Source: Octopus vulgaris
Taxonomy: Eukaryota
Assembly (NCBI GenBank): GCA_951406725.2
Contig: OX597827.1
Location: 74,834,001-74,898,000 of the forward strand
Reading direction: 5' to 3'
DNA length: 64,000 bases
Part shown: piece after piece, positions 1 to 64,000 of the stretch
Layout: each line of letters begins with the position of its first letter
How positions within the stretch are numbered: the stretch's first letter is position 1
Made by a program: the position numbers

Positions 1-3000
1 TATAATGGACACAGTTATAACGGCTTTGCTCATTGGTCTTCTCGATCAGCATTGACCTAAGGTGACGTAGTTACAAGAGTATTATAAAGTTTTCACAAAA
101 CAGTAGCATGTGATTAACTCTGAAGTGAAAAAGTCTTCAGTCATAAATAGCACCACTGTGGTATAGGTGAAATTAAATGCACCGTATCGGGTTTACAAGT
201 CAAAACAATAAGCGTTTTATAGTTTCACGTTTTACTCATAAATCTAAGCATTCTCAGATGACTATGGCTAACTATCATCATCATCATCATCAATAGCAGC
301 GGATGCTAACTGTTTTATCATCTAATTCAACAACAGTCACATCTGGAACGCATTTGGAACATAAACGTACTTCGTCGGTCCTCACCAAGGGTTAAACAAC
401 AACAACATCAAAAACTACAGCAACAACAACTTTGATCACTAATAGCTACTTCGCTGAAAACATAGCTACAGTAAAAATCAGGAGGAACGCCAACAACTAA
501 ATTAGAAGGAATGAGTAATTGTTCAGAGGAGCATTTACACAGCATTTCTACATCCTAGAAATAACGATTGCATCTTCCTCAAATTACATCCTCATAAAAG
601 AAGAAAACGTGTTTAGAGTAATATAGTCTTAGATATATTTTATCTAAAACTGAAGACAGAATGTTTATGGTTGGAATGATGTGGCTGGAATCATAAGTGC
701 CCTCAGTCGCGACTGGTCTGGACCTAAACAACATCAATAACAACGCGGATCAAGTTGACCAATGGGTCACATCTATATGTTCGTGTGGCGACCTCTAATC
801 TGATATTGTTTATCAAAGTTTATACAGGCATTTCAGTAGCAAACAAGACAATCTTTGTCACATAGTCCCCCGTACTACTAGGAACAGCAACAAAATCTCC
901 TTACCATTTTGAAAGAGGAATGAAACACTGCATAATGTAGTTTTAAGTAGACAATATCAGAGAGAGGAAAGAATCGGAAGGAGAAGGACAGAAAATCTTT
1001 GACTTCGTGTCTGCAGAGTGAGAGCTGACAAGGGGTCCAGCAACAAAATCACCAGTGCTAGACATACTGTTTACTACACCAAGAACAATTTGCATCGTAT
1101 CAGAATAACTGATCCTGAAATGATGCTGATGCTTAATTTATCTTCGTCACCTTTCCTTTTTCTTCATATTCTGGAAACATGATAATCGTTGTACATTCTT
1201 GTTGCCATATCATTCTCCAAAAATCTACAATGGTTTCTTTTAGAGGCCCTGTAAAAAGAGAAACATAAAATCTATGAGATCAACCAATTCATCAGGCGGA
1301 TCTACAACTTGGATAAGATTTATTAGTATACGATAAATAATTGTCTCACAACCGGAAACACTAAACTTTTCGATAGATAGATAGATAGATAGCTAGACAG
1401 ACAGACGCATACATATATAACTACATACACACACACATATACATACATATATGCATACATATGCACACACACATACACATATACACACATTTAATAAAAC
1501 TGTCACTTAGTTTTACATTGCTTAAAATTTCGTGGGTGTACTAGGAATTCACCATATCAAATCGGAGTGCTCATAAAAACTTTAAACAAATATACTGGGA
1601 CCTACTTTCTTTTGTTTGTGCACTCATTATATCATTGTACTTATAAAAAGCTAAGTTTGTTTGTACGTTGACCACTATTTTCACTAAATAGAATTGGTAG
1701 GAAGTTAGTTTTTGTATGTTTAAACTAATTTAACTTACGTCATGTTCACTATGGACCTTTTTTTTTCCCCCGAAAACGGGTTTAAGGTGGTTTAGGTTAG
1801 TTATCTTTACAATTTCAAGTTCCGAAGTGTAGAAGTTGAAAAGATAATTTATTGACAAGCCTCTTATGCTGGAAAAGAAAGCTAAAACAGCTAATGGAGT
1901 GGGAATGTGTAACAGAAGCTGATAATAAATGCAGGCGAACTAAAAGATTTTGTTCTGAAGTTGCTGCTGTTTTAATCAAAATATACTGCAATTTTTTATC
2001 GTAAAATGATTAGTTTATCAGTTTCTCTCTCTCACACGCACACACACACAAACACACACATGTATATATATATATAGTCAATTCAAATAAATTATCATTC
2101 AAGTAAACGAATAAAATTAACGAACAGGACGTGCAAAAGTAACCTATTAGCTTGACGCTCGGTAAATATGTATACAAGGGAGTGTACAAAAGTAACCGGA
2201 AACGTTCTCTGTGGGACAAGCTAGTTGTAGTTCAGGCTTCCGACACTAGAAGCTACTTTGTGCGACCCTCAAACATCAGTCTGCCACTGGCGTCCTGTAC
2301 AGATATCGTATTGCCACATGGTGCATCTTTGTTTTCCATTGTTTCATCGATTTTTGTGATGGCTAAAACGAAAGAACAGCGTTCTTCCGTGAAATTCTGT
2401 TTCCTGCTCGGGAAAATGGCACCGAAACAGTTAAGCGCTAAGTGCATCACTCTTAGCAGTTTGAAATGGTCTTAAAAAATCATGGATTAGATACCAAAAA
2501 GAAATAACATCAGATGCTGTGGATAGAGGAGAGTGCTTGGGGCAGTGGGGAACGTATAATTTCACCAATTTTGAATGAAATATAGACCAGAATTTTTAAA
2601 CTATGACCAACCAACGACTCTACTCAGAAACTAGGATGCATCTTGTTACTCATTTAATTTGGGAGTGCCAGCTCAGATTGTTTGGCCATGTTGCTCGATT
2701 TCCCAAGTTAGATCTTGTTACAATATTTTCTTCATTGAGGACCCAGATAGGTTGACAATTTGTATTGGTCGACCATATGCCACATGATCACGGAAGATAA
2801 GGCGGTGTCTCGTGGAGATGGAGACTGACTGGAACTCTGTTTGACGGGTCGCCCGGGAGAACTCGGGAATATACCGACAAATGGTGATTGCAGCATGTCC
2901 CCTCACCTGACCTGATTGTGTCAGAATCAAACCACTACACAAACCTCTATAGTCAGGTACTTTAATTATCATAATCAATAAGTTACAAAAGCATAACGCT

Positions 3001-61089: not shown

Positions 61090-64000
61090 TATTATTATTA
61101 TCATTATTATTATTATTATTATTATTGAGTGAGAGAGCAGTGCATGCCATCAAAGTGACACTGGGGTAAAATATACGAAGCCCAGTATACCCGTCTGATA
61201 AGGGTACACCAGGCTCATGCATCACAACTATATGTGCACAACATGGCGATCTCATATCAAGATAAACAGCGCATGACCTTGCAGGTGGGGCACAGTTAGA
61301 ATTTTCTACTGGTCGAGTAACCCATCCAGCTCAAAAGGTCTCTGAATAAAGGTTGTTTAAGGATGTTGAACAAAACACCCTTTCTACTTTTGTTAGCCAC
61401 TCCGCACTTTCTTTATATCTCGCCGGCTTCTTCTACAGTCTTCCTCCAAATTCTTTACTTTCTTCCGCATCTCAAATCAGTTCTTAGTGTTGGCGTCCCT
61501 CTGATTCCTCATATAGATGCCTTCTATTTTATTGGAACAGTCTATGCTGTTCGAAACCTTTGCATTTATCATCATTTTTTTTTAAATTTGGCTTTTTTTT
61601 TTGGTGTCAATTCTTCCATCCGTTTCATATTCTTCATGTTTTACCCTTTCATTACCGCTCTCTGCTACCGTTGTTTCACTCTCCTTCTGCTAATTTATTA
61701 TTATGTTTCTCTGAATTTCTTCAATCTCTACTGCCATAACCCAGTCGTCCCCACATATTACTCTTGTTTAGTCTATCAGTCACAGGGCGGATGCTTCAAA
61801 GCCTCCTTTCTTCATCCCATATTCTCTTCATTTGATTCATGAAGCCTCTTTTATTTGGCTCACTTCTCAGCCAGTATTCGATTACTATTTAGTTTACTTC
61901 TTTTCCCCCATTTCATTCTTTTTATTTTGCACTTTTGACTGCGACTTTGGTCCTGACCAATAGCTTGATGACGATCTGCCGGAACTTGACCAGAAACTCC
62001 CTGCCTGCCGAGCGCGACACCTTTACCGTTTACAGTTCCAATCCTGTTAGCGCAGTTGTGGTTATTATTTAATTATGACATCACTCATTTAGAGGTACCA
62101 TTTGTAAGATTGTGCAATCACCAGTATTTTTATTGTGACACCATCACTAGGTGAGTTGCTAGTCAAGGCTCTGATAGTCCACATCTACCTTATGTACAGT
62201 TTTTAGTGTCATTCTCGTTCATTCCAATGTTTTATATTTTTATATTTGACATTTTCACTCCTGGGAATTTTTGTTAAGGCAGCTAGCTGGTAGAGTCGTT
62301 AGCACGTTGGACGAAATGCTTAATAGTATTTCACCCATCGTTACATTCTGAGTTCAAATTCCGTCGAGATCGACTTTGCCTTTCCTCCTTTCGGGGTCGA
62401 TAAATTAAGAACCAGCGGAACACTGGGGTCGATGTATTTGACTAGTCCCCTCCCCCAAAACTTCAGGCCTTGTGCCTTTACTAGAAAAGATTATTGTTGT
62501 TGTTGTTGTTGTTATCTCAACTGAATCACAAGTGTCGAATCGTCGGCGACTAAACCAGCAACTCCACAGAACCTGCTCTGTGGAGAGTGTATTTTTCTTT
62601 CTATTTGCTAACCCTTCAGGATGAAATACAAGGCCTGTTGAAGAGTAGATGAACTCAGGGTAGTCAGCTGTCACCTACACAGCAACTTTTCATTAGTTGT
62701 GCATCCGATTAGATCATTCCCGCTCAGAAATAATAAACCAGATATAACAATAATAGAAAAGGAAAGGCGAAGTTGCTTACTAATTGATCCATCGTGTCCG
62801 TTCGATTCCAGGATTGTTAAGAAAGAAGAAAAACATTTTAAAATCCAATCCTTTAAAATTTGAAATTGCAAGAATTTGGAGCATGAAATATGTAAAAGTT
62901 GTGCCTGCAATAATTGGTGCATTAGGATCTGGGAGTAAGGATATAGATGAATGGTTGGAAGAGATTGGAATAGAATGTCCTGAAGAGCTTCCACAGAGAG
63001 TTTGCCTCTTAGGGACAGGAAAGATTATCAGAAGGGTTTTCAGCACTTGAAAGATTAACGAAAGCTTGAGGATATATAAAGTTACTGGTTGTAACCCATT
63101 ACCCACATAAATTCTAGCAAGAATAAGAACGAACCTGAGTCAAATAATATCTTTTATTGTTAAAGAAACAACAAAAGAGTCGATTTCGCAAGGACAAATT
63201 AGAAAGCGAAACAAAAAAATATACTTCAAAAGAAAATCCTAAAGAGAGTAGGTTGACAGGGTAATTTTCAGTCAAATGAGGAAAAGAATTACACTAGGCC
63301 AATCACAGAAGGCCAGATAAATTCTGGCAGGTGAAGTCCTAACATAAAATTCGTCCATAAGTGATTTGAACTAAATATATTCACTTTGAAATTACTTCAT
63401 AATTCCAATGGTATAATCAGTTGTTTCATACTCACATTCTTGACAGCTTTTACCCCGATATCCAGCAACACATCCATGAGCACAATGACCATAAACTGGG
63501 TTGCAAGTGTCGTTAATACAATGACAGTTGTGATGACATTCATCTCCATATGTGCCTTTAGGGCATACTGAAAAAAACCCCAGAAGAAACACGTTTTAAC
63601 TTACGAATTTATTGTTGCCTTTTAAATATCAGTAACATAATATTACTGGCATCATAGTCGACACCAACTGAAGACAGAAACATATTCTTTTGCAAATTTC
63701 ACAGAGTTTTCCTGAAGCTTCCAGATGGTTTGTTTCGTTCACAAGTCTTGAATCAAACCAGGACTTTCACAGAAGATATTTGCCAAACTTTCTTTGCATC
63801 AAAACCGAACCTTAAACAGGCTAAACTAGCTTCTTAATAAATTAACCAACCCAAAACTAAAAATGTATAAGACAGACGACTATTTCAAGCAATTAGTTAG
63901 ATGTCTTCAGGCACACAATCTTCTGCCATCTCCCTCCTTAGTACACACTGTGCGACTCTTGCGTACTTTGTTATCTTCCCTGTTAGCACACATTCTTCGC

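What the first reader, a model, noticed from the sequence alone, without database searches (positions are those of the whole stretch)
1151..63567. Hidden EGF-repeat receptor tyrosine phosphatase with a ~1,270-aa repetitive charged spacer between membrane and catalytic domain
Seen: ten minus-strand exons (63436-63567, 57313-57447, 47091-47225, 42080-42155, 25954-29756, 23417-23547, 22280-22367, 5703-5776, 3534-3558, 1151-1248) have GT-AG ends and matching phases (1-1-1-1-2-1-0-1-0-1-0). Together they give EGFx3 - TM - giant repeat - PTP domain. Established: receptor-PTP juxtamembrane segments are normally only tens to a couple of hundred residues. Inference: this lineage has placed a very long, probably disordered or charged-helical tether between the membrane and the phosphatase. 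Such a tether could uncouple or rescale ectodomain-driven dimer regulation, or act as a scaffold or condensate module. Automated annotation would probably split this locus into separate EGF, low-complexity and PTP models.
Basis: partly seen in the sequence, partly recalled or inferred. Interest (0 to 1): 0.9.

Follow-up and report, generated by a model that had tools for sequence, protein, structure and literature searches.

The report
Octopus EGF receptor pseudophosphatase, giant repeat exon
This looks like an octopus membrane receptor of the EGF-repeat tyrosine-phosphatase family whose first cytoplasmic exon has swollen to about 3.8 kb of charged tandem repeats, but that exon is frame-broken in this assembly and the phosphatase part is probably catalytically dead.

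Summary
All ten minus-strand exons have the claimed AG/GT ends and phase chain. Nine are open in the required frame. The 3.8-kb exon is not: 19 in-frame stops sit in 28745-29197, caused by five one-base length changes in a 45-bp array plus one inferred near 28700.

The exon's non-repetitive tail and the five PTP exons tile without gaps onto one annotated Octopus bimaculoides protein, P0001 (821 aa, no TM, starts inside a repeat unit). So the repeat-tail-to-PTP splicing is supported.

The link from the EGF and TM exons to the giant exon is circumstantial. It rests on phase fit, the only strong acceptor in about 5 kb, a KKRK start after the TM, and relatives that are all EGF-TM-PTP receptors with 89-128-aa juxtamembrane segments.

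No relative above 1437 aa turned up, and in a library of 1.84 billion cluster representatives only P0001 truly matched the repeats.

The window shows KNRD instead of KNRY. The orthologue has Cys-to-Ser and WPD-to-WPE in D1 and a dead D2. This is therefore probably a receptor pseudophosphatase on a long polyampholyte tether.

I class it as a new variant of a known kind, unproven without transcripts.

The parts
63436..63567 (-). EGF-like exon 1. One 8-Cys module, phase 1-1.
   Evidence: AG/GT ends and open frame. One of 3 motif hits in the six-frame scan. Pfam EGF_STAB1-2 E 0.021 and EGF_laminin E 0.046, both below the gathering score. 51% identical to EGF repeats of octopus RPTP paralogue P0031.
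57313..57447 (-). EGF-like exon 2. One 8-Cys module, phase 1-1.
   Evidence: Pfam EGF_laminin E 0.0016, 19.0 bits against a cut-off of 21. 50% identical to repeats of P0024 and P0025.
47091..47225 (-). EGF-like exon 3. One 8-Cys module, phase 1-1.
   Evidence: Pfam EGF_laminin E 0.028. 42-49% identical to repeats of P0025, P0024, P0028 and P0031.
42080..42155 (-). Transmembrane exon, phase 1 to 2.
   Evidence: Translation and consensus GTAAGT donor. Best 19-aa Kyte-Doolittle mean 2.74. Strict acceptor-like site.
25954..29756 (-). Giant first cytoplasmic exon as claimed (3,803 nt). It fits the phases (2 to 1) but is frame-broken in the middle in this assembly.
   Evidence: The acceptor at 29756 is the only strict acceptor-like site between 25601 and 30791. 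No Pfam family in three pieces searched.
29198..29755 (-). 5' open part of the giant exon (186 codons). It starts with a KKRK-type basic stretch, then runs into the 15-aa Lys/Glu repeat.
   Evidence: 0 stops in 186 codons. K 44%, E 19%, fraction of charged residues 0.69. AAA:AAG is 65:16.
28719..29643 (-). 45-bp (15-aa) tandem array of about 20.6 copies. It contains the frame-breaking length changes and 10 poly(A) tracks.
   Evidence: TRF: 94% matches, 1% indels. 5 of 18 units are off-length. All 10 windows with 12 or more A in 13 nt found in the exon lie here.
28745..29197 (-). Frame-broken stretch.
   Evidence: 19 stops in 151 codons of the required frame. The other two frames have 21 and 5 stops.
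26617..28558 (-). 72-bp (24-aa, built of two 12-aa halves) tandem array of 27 copies. Open, rich in Arg, Lys, Glu and Pro.
   Evidence: TRF: 83% matches, 0% indels. 0 stops in 647 codons. 26 full units carry at least 78 distinct substitution variants and no length variant. 21 of 56 single-step codon variants are synonymous against 19% expected.
25954..26616 (-). Non-repetitive tail of the giant exon.
   Evidence: 0 stops in 220 codons, and 0 of 20,000 shuffles were stop-free. The query 25955-26650 hit P0001 at E 3.5e-98 with 99% coverage. 181 of 209 aligned residues are identical.
23417..23547 (-). Pre-PTP juxtamembrane exon.
   Evidence: Aligns to P0001 251-292, 36 of 42 identical, directly after the tail. 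Homologous to the paralogues' juxtamembrane segment.
22280..22367 (-). PTP D1 exon with the pTyr-recognition loop, which reads KNRD instead of KNRY.
   Evidence: Translation. Aligns to P0001 293-320, 26 of 28 identical. Loop compared with PTPRS and paralogues.
5703..5776 (-). PTP D1 exon (DHSRI...YINAS).
   Evidence: Pfam Y_phosphatase E 0.017, profile positions 14-35. Aligns to P0001 323-346, 22 of 24 identical.
3534..3558 (-). 25-nt PTP micro-exon.
   Evidence: 8 of 8 residues identical to P0001 347-354. Strict acceptor-like site.
1151..1248 (-). PTP D1 exon (DFWRMIW motif). It is the last one inside the window.
   Evidence: Pfam Y_phosphatase E 4.6e-10, profile positions 50-81 of 234. Aligns to P0001 357-387, 30 of 31 identical.

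Best explanation
The window holds the middle of one octopus gene from a cephalopod family of receptor-type PTPs. That family is built as F5/8-type-C domain, 8-Cys EGF-like repeats, TM, then tandem PTP domains. In this lineage, two tandem arrays have inflated the first cytoplasmic exon from a few dozen codons to about 1,270: a 15-aa Lys/Glu unit of about 20 copies and a 24-aa Arg/Lys/Glu/Pro unit of 27 copies, followed by a 220-codon unique tail. The product would be a single-pass receptor with a highly charged, largely unstructured spacer of about 1,300 residues between the membrane and a PTP-fold module. That module has lost its catalytic residues. It would then act as a binding or scaffolding module on a long flexible leash, not as an enzyme under dimer control.

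Shown: exon ends and phases, the repeat anatomy, splicing of the tail to the PTP exons (protein-level support from an orthologue), and KNRD in the window.

Inferred: the TM-to-giant-exon junction; that the six one-base frame breaks in the 45-bp array are homopolymer-length errors of the assembly or a variant of this haplotype; that the window's own D1 and D2 are dead like the orthologue's; and the function.
For: 1. The tail and five PTP exons align one after another to P0001 residues 15-387 at 86-100% identity per exon.

2. The open frame runs 930 codons upstream of the 25954 donor. No ATG appears in about the first 490 of them (translation, read by eye), which suits an internal exon.

3. The 72-bp array has no length variant among 26 units despite at least 78 substitution variants. 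Synonymous variants are enriched (21 of 56 against 19% expected).

4. The TM exon ends in phase 2 with a GTAAGT donor, so it needs a downstream exon. The giant exon opens in exactly that phase. Its acceptor is the only strict one in about 5.2 kb. It starts with a KKRK-type basic stretch, as expected after a TM.

5. In a quick ML tree of 64 D1 domains, P0001 sits in a clade of 8 (SH-aLRT 99) with octopus proteins. In five of the other seven (P0024, P0025, P0026, P0027, P0028) the scan found both an EGF-like repeat and a TM. The window's EGF exons are 42-51% identical to the EGF repeats of P0024, P0025, P0026, P0028 and P0031.

6. The frame is the same before and after the broken stretch. All the length changes sit in homopolymer runs. 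In that array there are 5 length variants against only 8 substitution variants, an excess that fits consensus errors.

7. In the orthologue's D1: KNRD, WPE, Cys to Ser, Gln to Glu. D2 reads VHGSDGMKKSG.
Against: - As assembled, translation from the TM exon would stop at codon 187 of the giant exon.
- The five length changes all lie in the last 11 of 18 units, not evenly spread. A-runs also slip in real genomes.
- P0001 has no TM and starts at a Met inside a repeat unit, so a non-receptor product is possible.
- No protein in the searched sets joins EGF/TM to the repeats.
- Third-position excess of diversity in the 72-bp array is weak (permutation 1,902 of 20,000).
- Similarity between the paralogues' juxtamembrane segments and the giant exon stood out in only 1 of 12 tests.
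- Ten poly(A) tracks lie in the 45-bp array. [quoted passage not shown]
- The window's own catalytic loop lies outside the window.
Confidence: 0.55

Rival explanations
1. There are two transcription units. The repeat, tail and PTP exons form a non-receptor, cytoplasmic pseudo-PTP gene that starts inside or just upstream of the giant exon. The EGF and TM exons belong to a separate upstream gene of the MEGF type, or to a short EGF-TM isoform that ends in the Lys-rich stretch.
For: - The only annotated relative that covers the tail (P0001) has no TM and starts inside a repeat unit.
- In this assembly the frame from the TM exon ends at codon 187 of the giant exon.
- An in-frame ATG lies three codons into the exon.
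- No database protein joins both halves.
Against: - The TM exon has a consensus donor in phase 2 and needs a partner. The giant exon matches that phase and has a strong acceptor, which a first exon would not need.
- In five of the other seven members of P0001's D1 clade, the scan found both an EGF-like repeat and a TM.
- About 490 codons are open upstream of the first ATG of the 930-codon frame.
- P0001's start inside a repeat looks like a model truncated at a repeat or a gap. That is an inference; I could not see that genome.
Confidence: 0.2
2. The locus is decaying. The frame breaks are real, the PTP domains are dead, and the gene is a pseudogene or under relaxed constraint. The repeat arrays are then neutral minisatellite expansions.
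For: - 19 in-frame stops from one-base length changes.
- The orthologue lacks catalytic residues in both domains.
- The D1 terminal branch of P0001 is long (1.09 against a median of 0.22).
- Only a weak codon-position signal in the array.
Against: - Outside the 453-nt stretch the frame has no stop in 1,115 codons of the giant exon. All nine other exons are open with intact splice sites.
- The PTP exons are 122 of 133 residues identical to the O. bimaculoides protein, against 181 of 209 in the tail.
- There are no length variants in 26 units of the 72-bp array.
- Pseudophosphatases are functional proteins elsewhere (PMC7320164, listing abstract).
Confidence: 0.15
3. Only part of the 3.8 kb is coding. 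The 45-bp array, or its broken half, is removed as an intron or skipped, so the real spacer is roughly 930-1,100 residues.
For: The broken stretch is confined to 28745-29197. GT dinucleotides in a GTAAAG context occur upstream at about 29662 and in nearly every 72-bp unit (read by eye).
Against: The 45-bp unit contains no GT. The strand is purine-rich, with no pyrimidine tract for an internal acceptor: 29756 is the only strict acceptor-like site between 25601 and 30791.
Confidence: 0.1

Closest known systems
O. bimaculoides 'receptor-type tyrosine-protein phosphatase T' (P0001, 821 aa; name as given by NCBI)
   Same: It is the orthologue-like match of the tail and of all five PTP exons, residues 15-387, with 86-100% identity per exon. 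It has the same KNRD loop.
   Different: The model has no EGF repeats or TM and starts at a Met inside a repeat unit. It therefore does not show the repeat arrays or the receptor half. It extends beyond the window through D1 and D2.
Octopus F5/8-type-C + EGF-repeat + TM + tandem-PTP receptors (P0024 O. vulgaris, P0025 and P0026 O. sinensis, annotated 'receptor-type tyrosine-protein phosphatase T-like' or 'uncharacterized')
   Same: They share the D1 clade (SH-aLRT 99, quick tree). D1 is 44-45% identical to P0001's D1, and 38-39% over the longer BLASTP alignment. The EGF-like repeats have the same C..G.YG..C pattern and are 44-50% identical to the window's EGF exons. The juxtamembrane segment next to the PTP domain is homologous.
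   Different: Their juxtamembrane segment is about 105 aa, against about 1,330 here. Their D1 keeps WPD and VHCSAGVGRTG. P0024 and P0025 also keep KNRY, while P0026 reads KNQY. An F5/8-type-C domain is present; none is visible in the window, and it would lie upstream if it exists.
O. sinensis 'receptor-type tyrosine-protein phosphatase alpha-like isoform X2' (P0028) and P0030
   Same: They are sister to P0001 in the quick tree (SH-aLRT 91, with a long-branch warning). P0028 has the same His-to-Gln and Cys-to-Ser changes in the D1 P-loop and WPE for WPD, plus EGF-like repeats and a TM.
   Different: P0028's juxtamembrane segment is 89 aa with no repeat arrays. It is only 31% identical overall.
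PTPRU, a vertebrate receptor pseudophosphatase (PMC7320164; only the listing abstract was seen)
   Same: It is a receptor-type PTP whose phosphatase domains lack activity and which is thought to act by binding. It is a precedent for a non-catalytic receptor PTP.
   Different: It has a MAM/Ig/FN3 ectodomain, an ordinary juxtamembrane region and a different route to inactivity (recalled, not tested here). It is not a close relative.
Long charged spacer regions such as the titin PEVK segment, neurofilament side-arms and ER/K single alpha-helices (recalled from general knowledge, no call)
   Same: They share the composition (Lys/Glu/Pro/Arg-rich, fraction of charged residues 0.57-0.69) and tandem short-unit construction. 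This suggests an entropic spacer or tether.
   Different: There is no sequence homology: no Pfam family, and the 4 of 148 weaker library hits I read were unrelated low-complexity proteins. Prolines every 12-24 residues and the AlphaFold2 model of 12 short helices argue against one continuous ER/K helix.

Membership tests
Classical (class I Cys-based) protein tyrosine phosphatase domain, Pfam PF00102 | Significant match to the Y_phosphatase profile | tested here: met
   Searched exon by exon. 1151-1248 scores E 4.6e-10 (40 bits, cut-off 20.9), and 5703-5776 scores E 0.017. Orthologue P0001 scores E 2.3e-87 with two stretches.
Classical (class I Cys-based) protein tyrosine phosphatase domain, Pfam PF00102 | Catalytic P-loop HCX5R with the nucleophilic Cys | not testable with these tools
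   This part of the gene lies beyond the window start; nothing matching it is in 1-1150. In orthologue P0001 the loop reads VQSSNGVGRSG, with Cys replaced by Ser. In the orthologue the feature is therefore not met.
Classical (class I Cys-based) protein tyrosine phosphatase domain, Pfam PF00102 | pTyr-recognition loop KNRY | tested here: not met
   The window's exon 22280-22367 reads KNRD, as does P0001. PTPRS, P0024 and P0025 have KNRY at the aligned position.
Classical (class I Cys-based) protein tyrosine phosphatase domain, Pfam PF00102 | WPD loop with the general-acid Asp | not testable with these tools
   It lies outside the window. P0001 has WPE.
Receptor-type PTP (single-pass, ectodomain + TM + PTP) | A TM segment and an ectodomain on the same transcript as the PTP domain | tested here: inconclusive
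   The TM exon (KD 2.74) and three EGF exons lie upstream on the same strand in compatible phases. However, the frame is broken in 28745-29197, and no protein or transcript joining them was available.
Laminin-type (8-Cys) EGF-like repeat, Pfam PF00053 | Profile match at or above the gathering score | tested here: not met
   The exons score 14.3, 19.0 and 15.0 bits against a cut-off of 21, with E 0.046, 0.0016 and 0.028. The single 44-aa exons are shorter than the 49-position profile.
Laminin-type (8-Cys) EGF-like repeat, Pfam PF00053 | Eight cysteines in conserved spacing, one module per phase 1-1 exon | tested here: met
   Each of the three exons has 8 Cys at matching positions (translations, counted by eye). 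All three exons are phase 1-1. They are 42-51% identical to repeats in annotated octopus RPTPs.
ER/K single alpha-helix spacer | A long uninterrupted charged helix | tested here: not met
   AlphaFold2 without an alignment, on 312 aa of the 72-bp array, gave 12 helices of 11-18 residues separated by 6-12-residue breaks. Mean pLDDT was 62.7 and pTM 0.16. Pro makes up 10% of residues. This is a low-confidence model.

The most novel reading that the evidence does not exclude
The frame breaks are assembly errors, and the octopus really makes an EGF-repeat receptor whose dead PTP-fold 'reader' hangs on a repeat-built polyampholyte leash of about 1,300 residues. That is roughly ten times the juxtamembrane length of its own paralogues. 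The leash arose by recent tandem amplification within one exon. Its ten lysine-coding poly(A) tracks would double as a built-in brake on translation.
Probability: 0.4. Interest if true: 0.6.

Novelty: new variant of a known kind. Interest (0 to 1): 0.45.

Why it matters
If the full-length protein exists, it is a natural experiment in how far a PTP-fold module can be placed from the membrane. It is also an example of a receptor pseudophosphatase born within a cephalopod-specific EGF-RPTP family, and a clean case of exon inflation by in-frame minisatellite growth.

It also shows how repeat-rich exons defeat annotation. The only related model in the searched protein sets is an 821-aa fragment without a TM. 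In practice, the locus would flag homopolymer-length errors in this assembly, if that is what the frame breaks are.

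Tried and rejected
- Looking for a full-length model. P0001 searched against proteins of 1438-4105 aa gave no close relative; the best hit was 28% identical. The 930-codon open frame searched against 1.84 billion representatives gave 149 hits, of which only P0001 is a true match (E 9e-100). 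The next best was E 1.6e-26. The 4 of the other 148 that I read (P0069, P0072, P0074, P0076) are unrelated low-complexity proteins.
- Pfam on three giant-exon pieces found 0 families.
- PDB sequence search with EGF exon 2 gave one weak hit, fibrillin-1 at E 0.23. It was not informative.
- Testing whether the giant exon is an expanded copy of the paralogues' juxtamembrane segment. Of 12 alignments against shuffles, only P0026 against the tail end stood out (z 3.85, 2 of 500 shuffles). After 12 tests this is marginal, so I do not claim it.
- Codon-position diversity in the 72-bp array was 0.171, 0.202 and 0.245, which is weak (1,902 of 20,000 permutations reach it).
- Large intron ORFs as missing exons were rejected. 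Of 10 scanned, 4 match reverse-transcriptase families and 6 match nothing.
- Literature searches found no paper on EGF-repeat RPTPs of cephalopods or on giant RPTP juxtamembrane regions. A word search for 'juxtamembrane' in PMC7959691 gave 0 occurrences.
- The careful ML tree did not finish within the time limit, so the quick tree was used.
- Not done: the joined spliced coding sequence was neither built nor searched, and all searches were exon by exon. No eukaryotic genome or transcript collection was open, so the junction reads, the O. bimaculoides DNA and dN/dS stayed unchecked. The bacterial and archaeal genome collection was not used.

Full report
WHAT IS THERE

Their lengths give the stated phase chain. 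Nine of the ten donors are GTRAG, which occurs about once per 587 nt on that strand.

A six-frame scan for the C..G.YG..C...C.C pattern found three hits in the whole window, and they are exactly the three claimed EGF exons. Each is one 8-Cys module in a phase 1-1 exon. Pfam sees them only weakly as EGF_laminin (E 0.0016-0.046, all below the gathering score).

The 76-nt exon encodes a 19-residue hydrophobic stretch with Kyte-Doolittle mean 2.74. Exon 1151-1248 matches Pfam Y_phosphatase at E 4.6e-10, and exon 5703-5776 at E 0.017. I neither built nor searched the joined coding sequence.

THE GIANT EXON

In the only frame that fits the phases, interval 25954-29756 is not open. Stops by segment are:
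- 0 in 186 codons (29198-29755)
- 19 in 151 codons (28745-29197)
- 0 in 62 codons
- 0 in 647 codons (the 72-bp array)
- 0 in 220 codons (the unique tail)

The exon is built from two arrays. One has a 45-bp unit (about 20.6 copies, 94% matches, 1% indels, 28719-29643). The other has a 72-bp unit (27 copies, 83% matches, 0% indels, 26617-28558).

The stops come from five one-base length changes in units of the 45-bp array (-1, -1, -1, +1, +1). A sixth, in an A-run near 28700, I read by eye. All sit in homopolymer runs, and the net shift is zero, so the frame before and after the broken stretch is the same.

In that array, 5 of 18 units are off-length, while the 13 full-length units carry only 8 substitution variants. 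In the 72-bp array, 26 units carry at least 78 substitution variants and no length variant at all. The first pattern fits homopolymer-length errors in a long-read consensus, or real slippage. The second fits selection for the reading frame.

Synonymous changes are enriched among single-step codon variants of the 72-bp array (21 of 56 against 19% expected). The third-position excess of diversity is weak (1,902 of 20,000 permutations reach it). None of 20,000 shuffles of the tail was stop-free.

OUTSIDE EVIDENCE

The tail (25955-26650) hit one protein, P0001, at E 3.5e-98 with 99% coverage. NCBI names it 'receptor-type tyrosine-protein phosphatase T' of Octopus bimaculoides, 821 aa.

Aligned separately, the tail and the five PTP exons land one after another on P0001:
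- tail on 15-247
- 23417-23545 on 251-292 (36 of 42 identical)
- 22280-22367 on 293-320 (26 of 28)
- 5703-5774 on 323-346 (22 of 24)
- 3534-3558 on 347-354 (8 of 8)
- 1151-1246 on 357-387 (30 of 31)

Only the split codons lie between these blocks. This supports junctions 25954>23547, 23417>22367, 22280>5776, 5703>3558 and 3534>1248 at the protein level, including the 25-nt micro-exon.

P0001 itself has no TM. It begins at a Met inside a repeat unit.

No close relative longer than 1437 aa was found. A full HMMER pass of the 930-codon open frame over 1.84 billion representatives returned 149 hits, of which only P0001 is a true match. I read 4 of the other 148, and they are unrelated low-complexity proteins. 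The repeat arrays are therefore not covered by any model I could reach.

IS IT ONE RECEPTOR GENE?

There is no direct evidence for the 42080>29756 junction. The indirect evidence is as follows.

1. The TM exon ends in phase 2 with a consensus donor. The giant exon opens in that phase.
2. The acceptor at 29756 is the only strict acceptor-like site between 25601 and 30791. Such sites occur about once per 928 nt.
3. The exon starts with a KKRK-type basic stretch, as expected after a TM.
4. The 930-codon frame has no ATG for about its first 490 codons (read by eye).
5. In a quick ML tree of 64 of the 68 fetched proteins, P0001's D1 lies in a clade of eight octopus sequences (SH-aLRT 99). Four rows were dropped because their HSP was shorter than 200 aa. 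In five of the other seven clade members (P0024, P0025, P0026, P0027, P0028), my motif scan found both an EGF-like repeat and a TM. TM-to-KNR distances are 89-128 aa in the 6 proteins where the scan found both markers. The tree carries a long-branch warning for P0001, and the careful search did not finish.
6. The window's EGF exons are 42-51% identical to the EGF repeats of five of these octopus receptor PTPs (P0024, P0025, P0026, P0028, P0031). This comparison was made only against the 68 PTP-bearing proteins I had fetched, so it does not exclude equally similar non-PTP EGF proteins.

A direct TM-to-23547 splice would be out of phase.

THE PHOSPHATASE IS PROBABLY DEAD

The window's pTyr-recognition loop reads KNRD instead of KNRY. 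Aligned to PTPRS D1 and to the octopus paralogues, the orthologue's D1 has WPE for WPD and VQSSNGVGRSG for VHCSAGVGRTG, so Cys becomes Ser. Glu replaces the first Gln of the Q-loop. D2 reads VHGSDGMKKSG.

Paralogues P0024-P0027 and P0029 keep WPD and the Cys. P0028 shares the Gln-Ser change. The window's own catalytic loop lies beyond its start.

NATURE OF THE SPACER

The 5' part is 44% Lys and 19% Glu, with a fraction of charged residues of 0.69. The arrays are 20% Lys, 13% Arg, 23% Glu and 10% Pro, with a charged fraction of 0.57.

AlphaFold2 without an alignment, on 312 residues of the 72-bp array, gave 12 short helices separated by proline-containing breaks. Mean pLDDT was 62.7 and pTM 0.16. 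That is a low-confidence picture of a flexible chain, not one long helix. No Pfam family matches.

Lys codons are mostly AAA (65:16 in the 5' part). Ten windows with at least 12 A in 13 nt all lie in the 45-bp array. [quoted passage not shown] This counts against efficient translation, or it points to a built-in attenuator.

VERDICT

The most likely reading (confidence 0.55) is a lineage-specific member of the octopus EGF-repeat receptor-PTP family, in which in-frame tandem amplification inflated the first cytoplasmic exon and the PTP domains have become pseudophosphatase modules.

The rivals are:
- two transcription units (0.2)
- a decaying locus (0.15)
- partial use of the exon (0.1)

Transcript data and accurate re-sequencing of 28700-29300 would decide among them. 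PTPRU is a precedent for a receptor pseudophosphatase (PMC7320164; only the listing abstract was seen). My four literature searches found nothing on such a spacer in a receptor PTP. Supplementary files were not consulted.

Noticed in passing
window 8912-9448 (+), 57913-58521 (-), 36997-37935 (+), 59917-60582 (-): Intron ORFs match reverse-transcriptase families: RVT_1 at E 4.8e-16 and 6.6e-11, zf-RVT at E 8.9e-05 and 0.0028. They are probably LINE-type retrotransposon debris in the introns. Six other large ORFs matched nothing.
   Followed up: partly
window 29069-29607 (-): Ten lysine-coding poly(A) tracks (at least 12 A in 13 nt) lie in the 45-bp array. The whole minus strand has 16 and the plus strand has 1. 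They could cause ribosome stalling or sliding if translated.
   Followed up: partly
P0028 residues ~506-744 (O. sinensis) and P0030: P0028, an octopus EGF-TM-PTP paralogue with a normal 89-aa juxtamembrane segment, carries the same His-to-Gln and Cys-to-Ser changes in the D1 P-loop and WPE for WPD. P0030 has an identical D1 in the tree. Pseudophosphatase D1 domains may therefore predate the repeat expansion.
   Followed up: partly
window 25830-25950 and 29923-30621: Microsatellites flank the giant exon. ATCT, (CT)n, (TA)n and (GA)n runs start right after the 25954 donor. Long (TA)n runs lie upstream at 29923-29952, 30075-30288 and 30549-30621.
   Followed up: no
window 19214-19339: A 28-bp (or 57-bp) minisatellite of 4.5 copies at 95% matches lies in the intron between the PTP exons.
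   Followed up: no
window 23548-23549 (acceptor of exon 23417-23547): This exon uses a GAG acceptor (TTTTCTGAG|G), which is unusual. Even so, the resulting junction matches P0001 residue for residue.
   Followed up: partly
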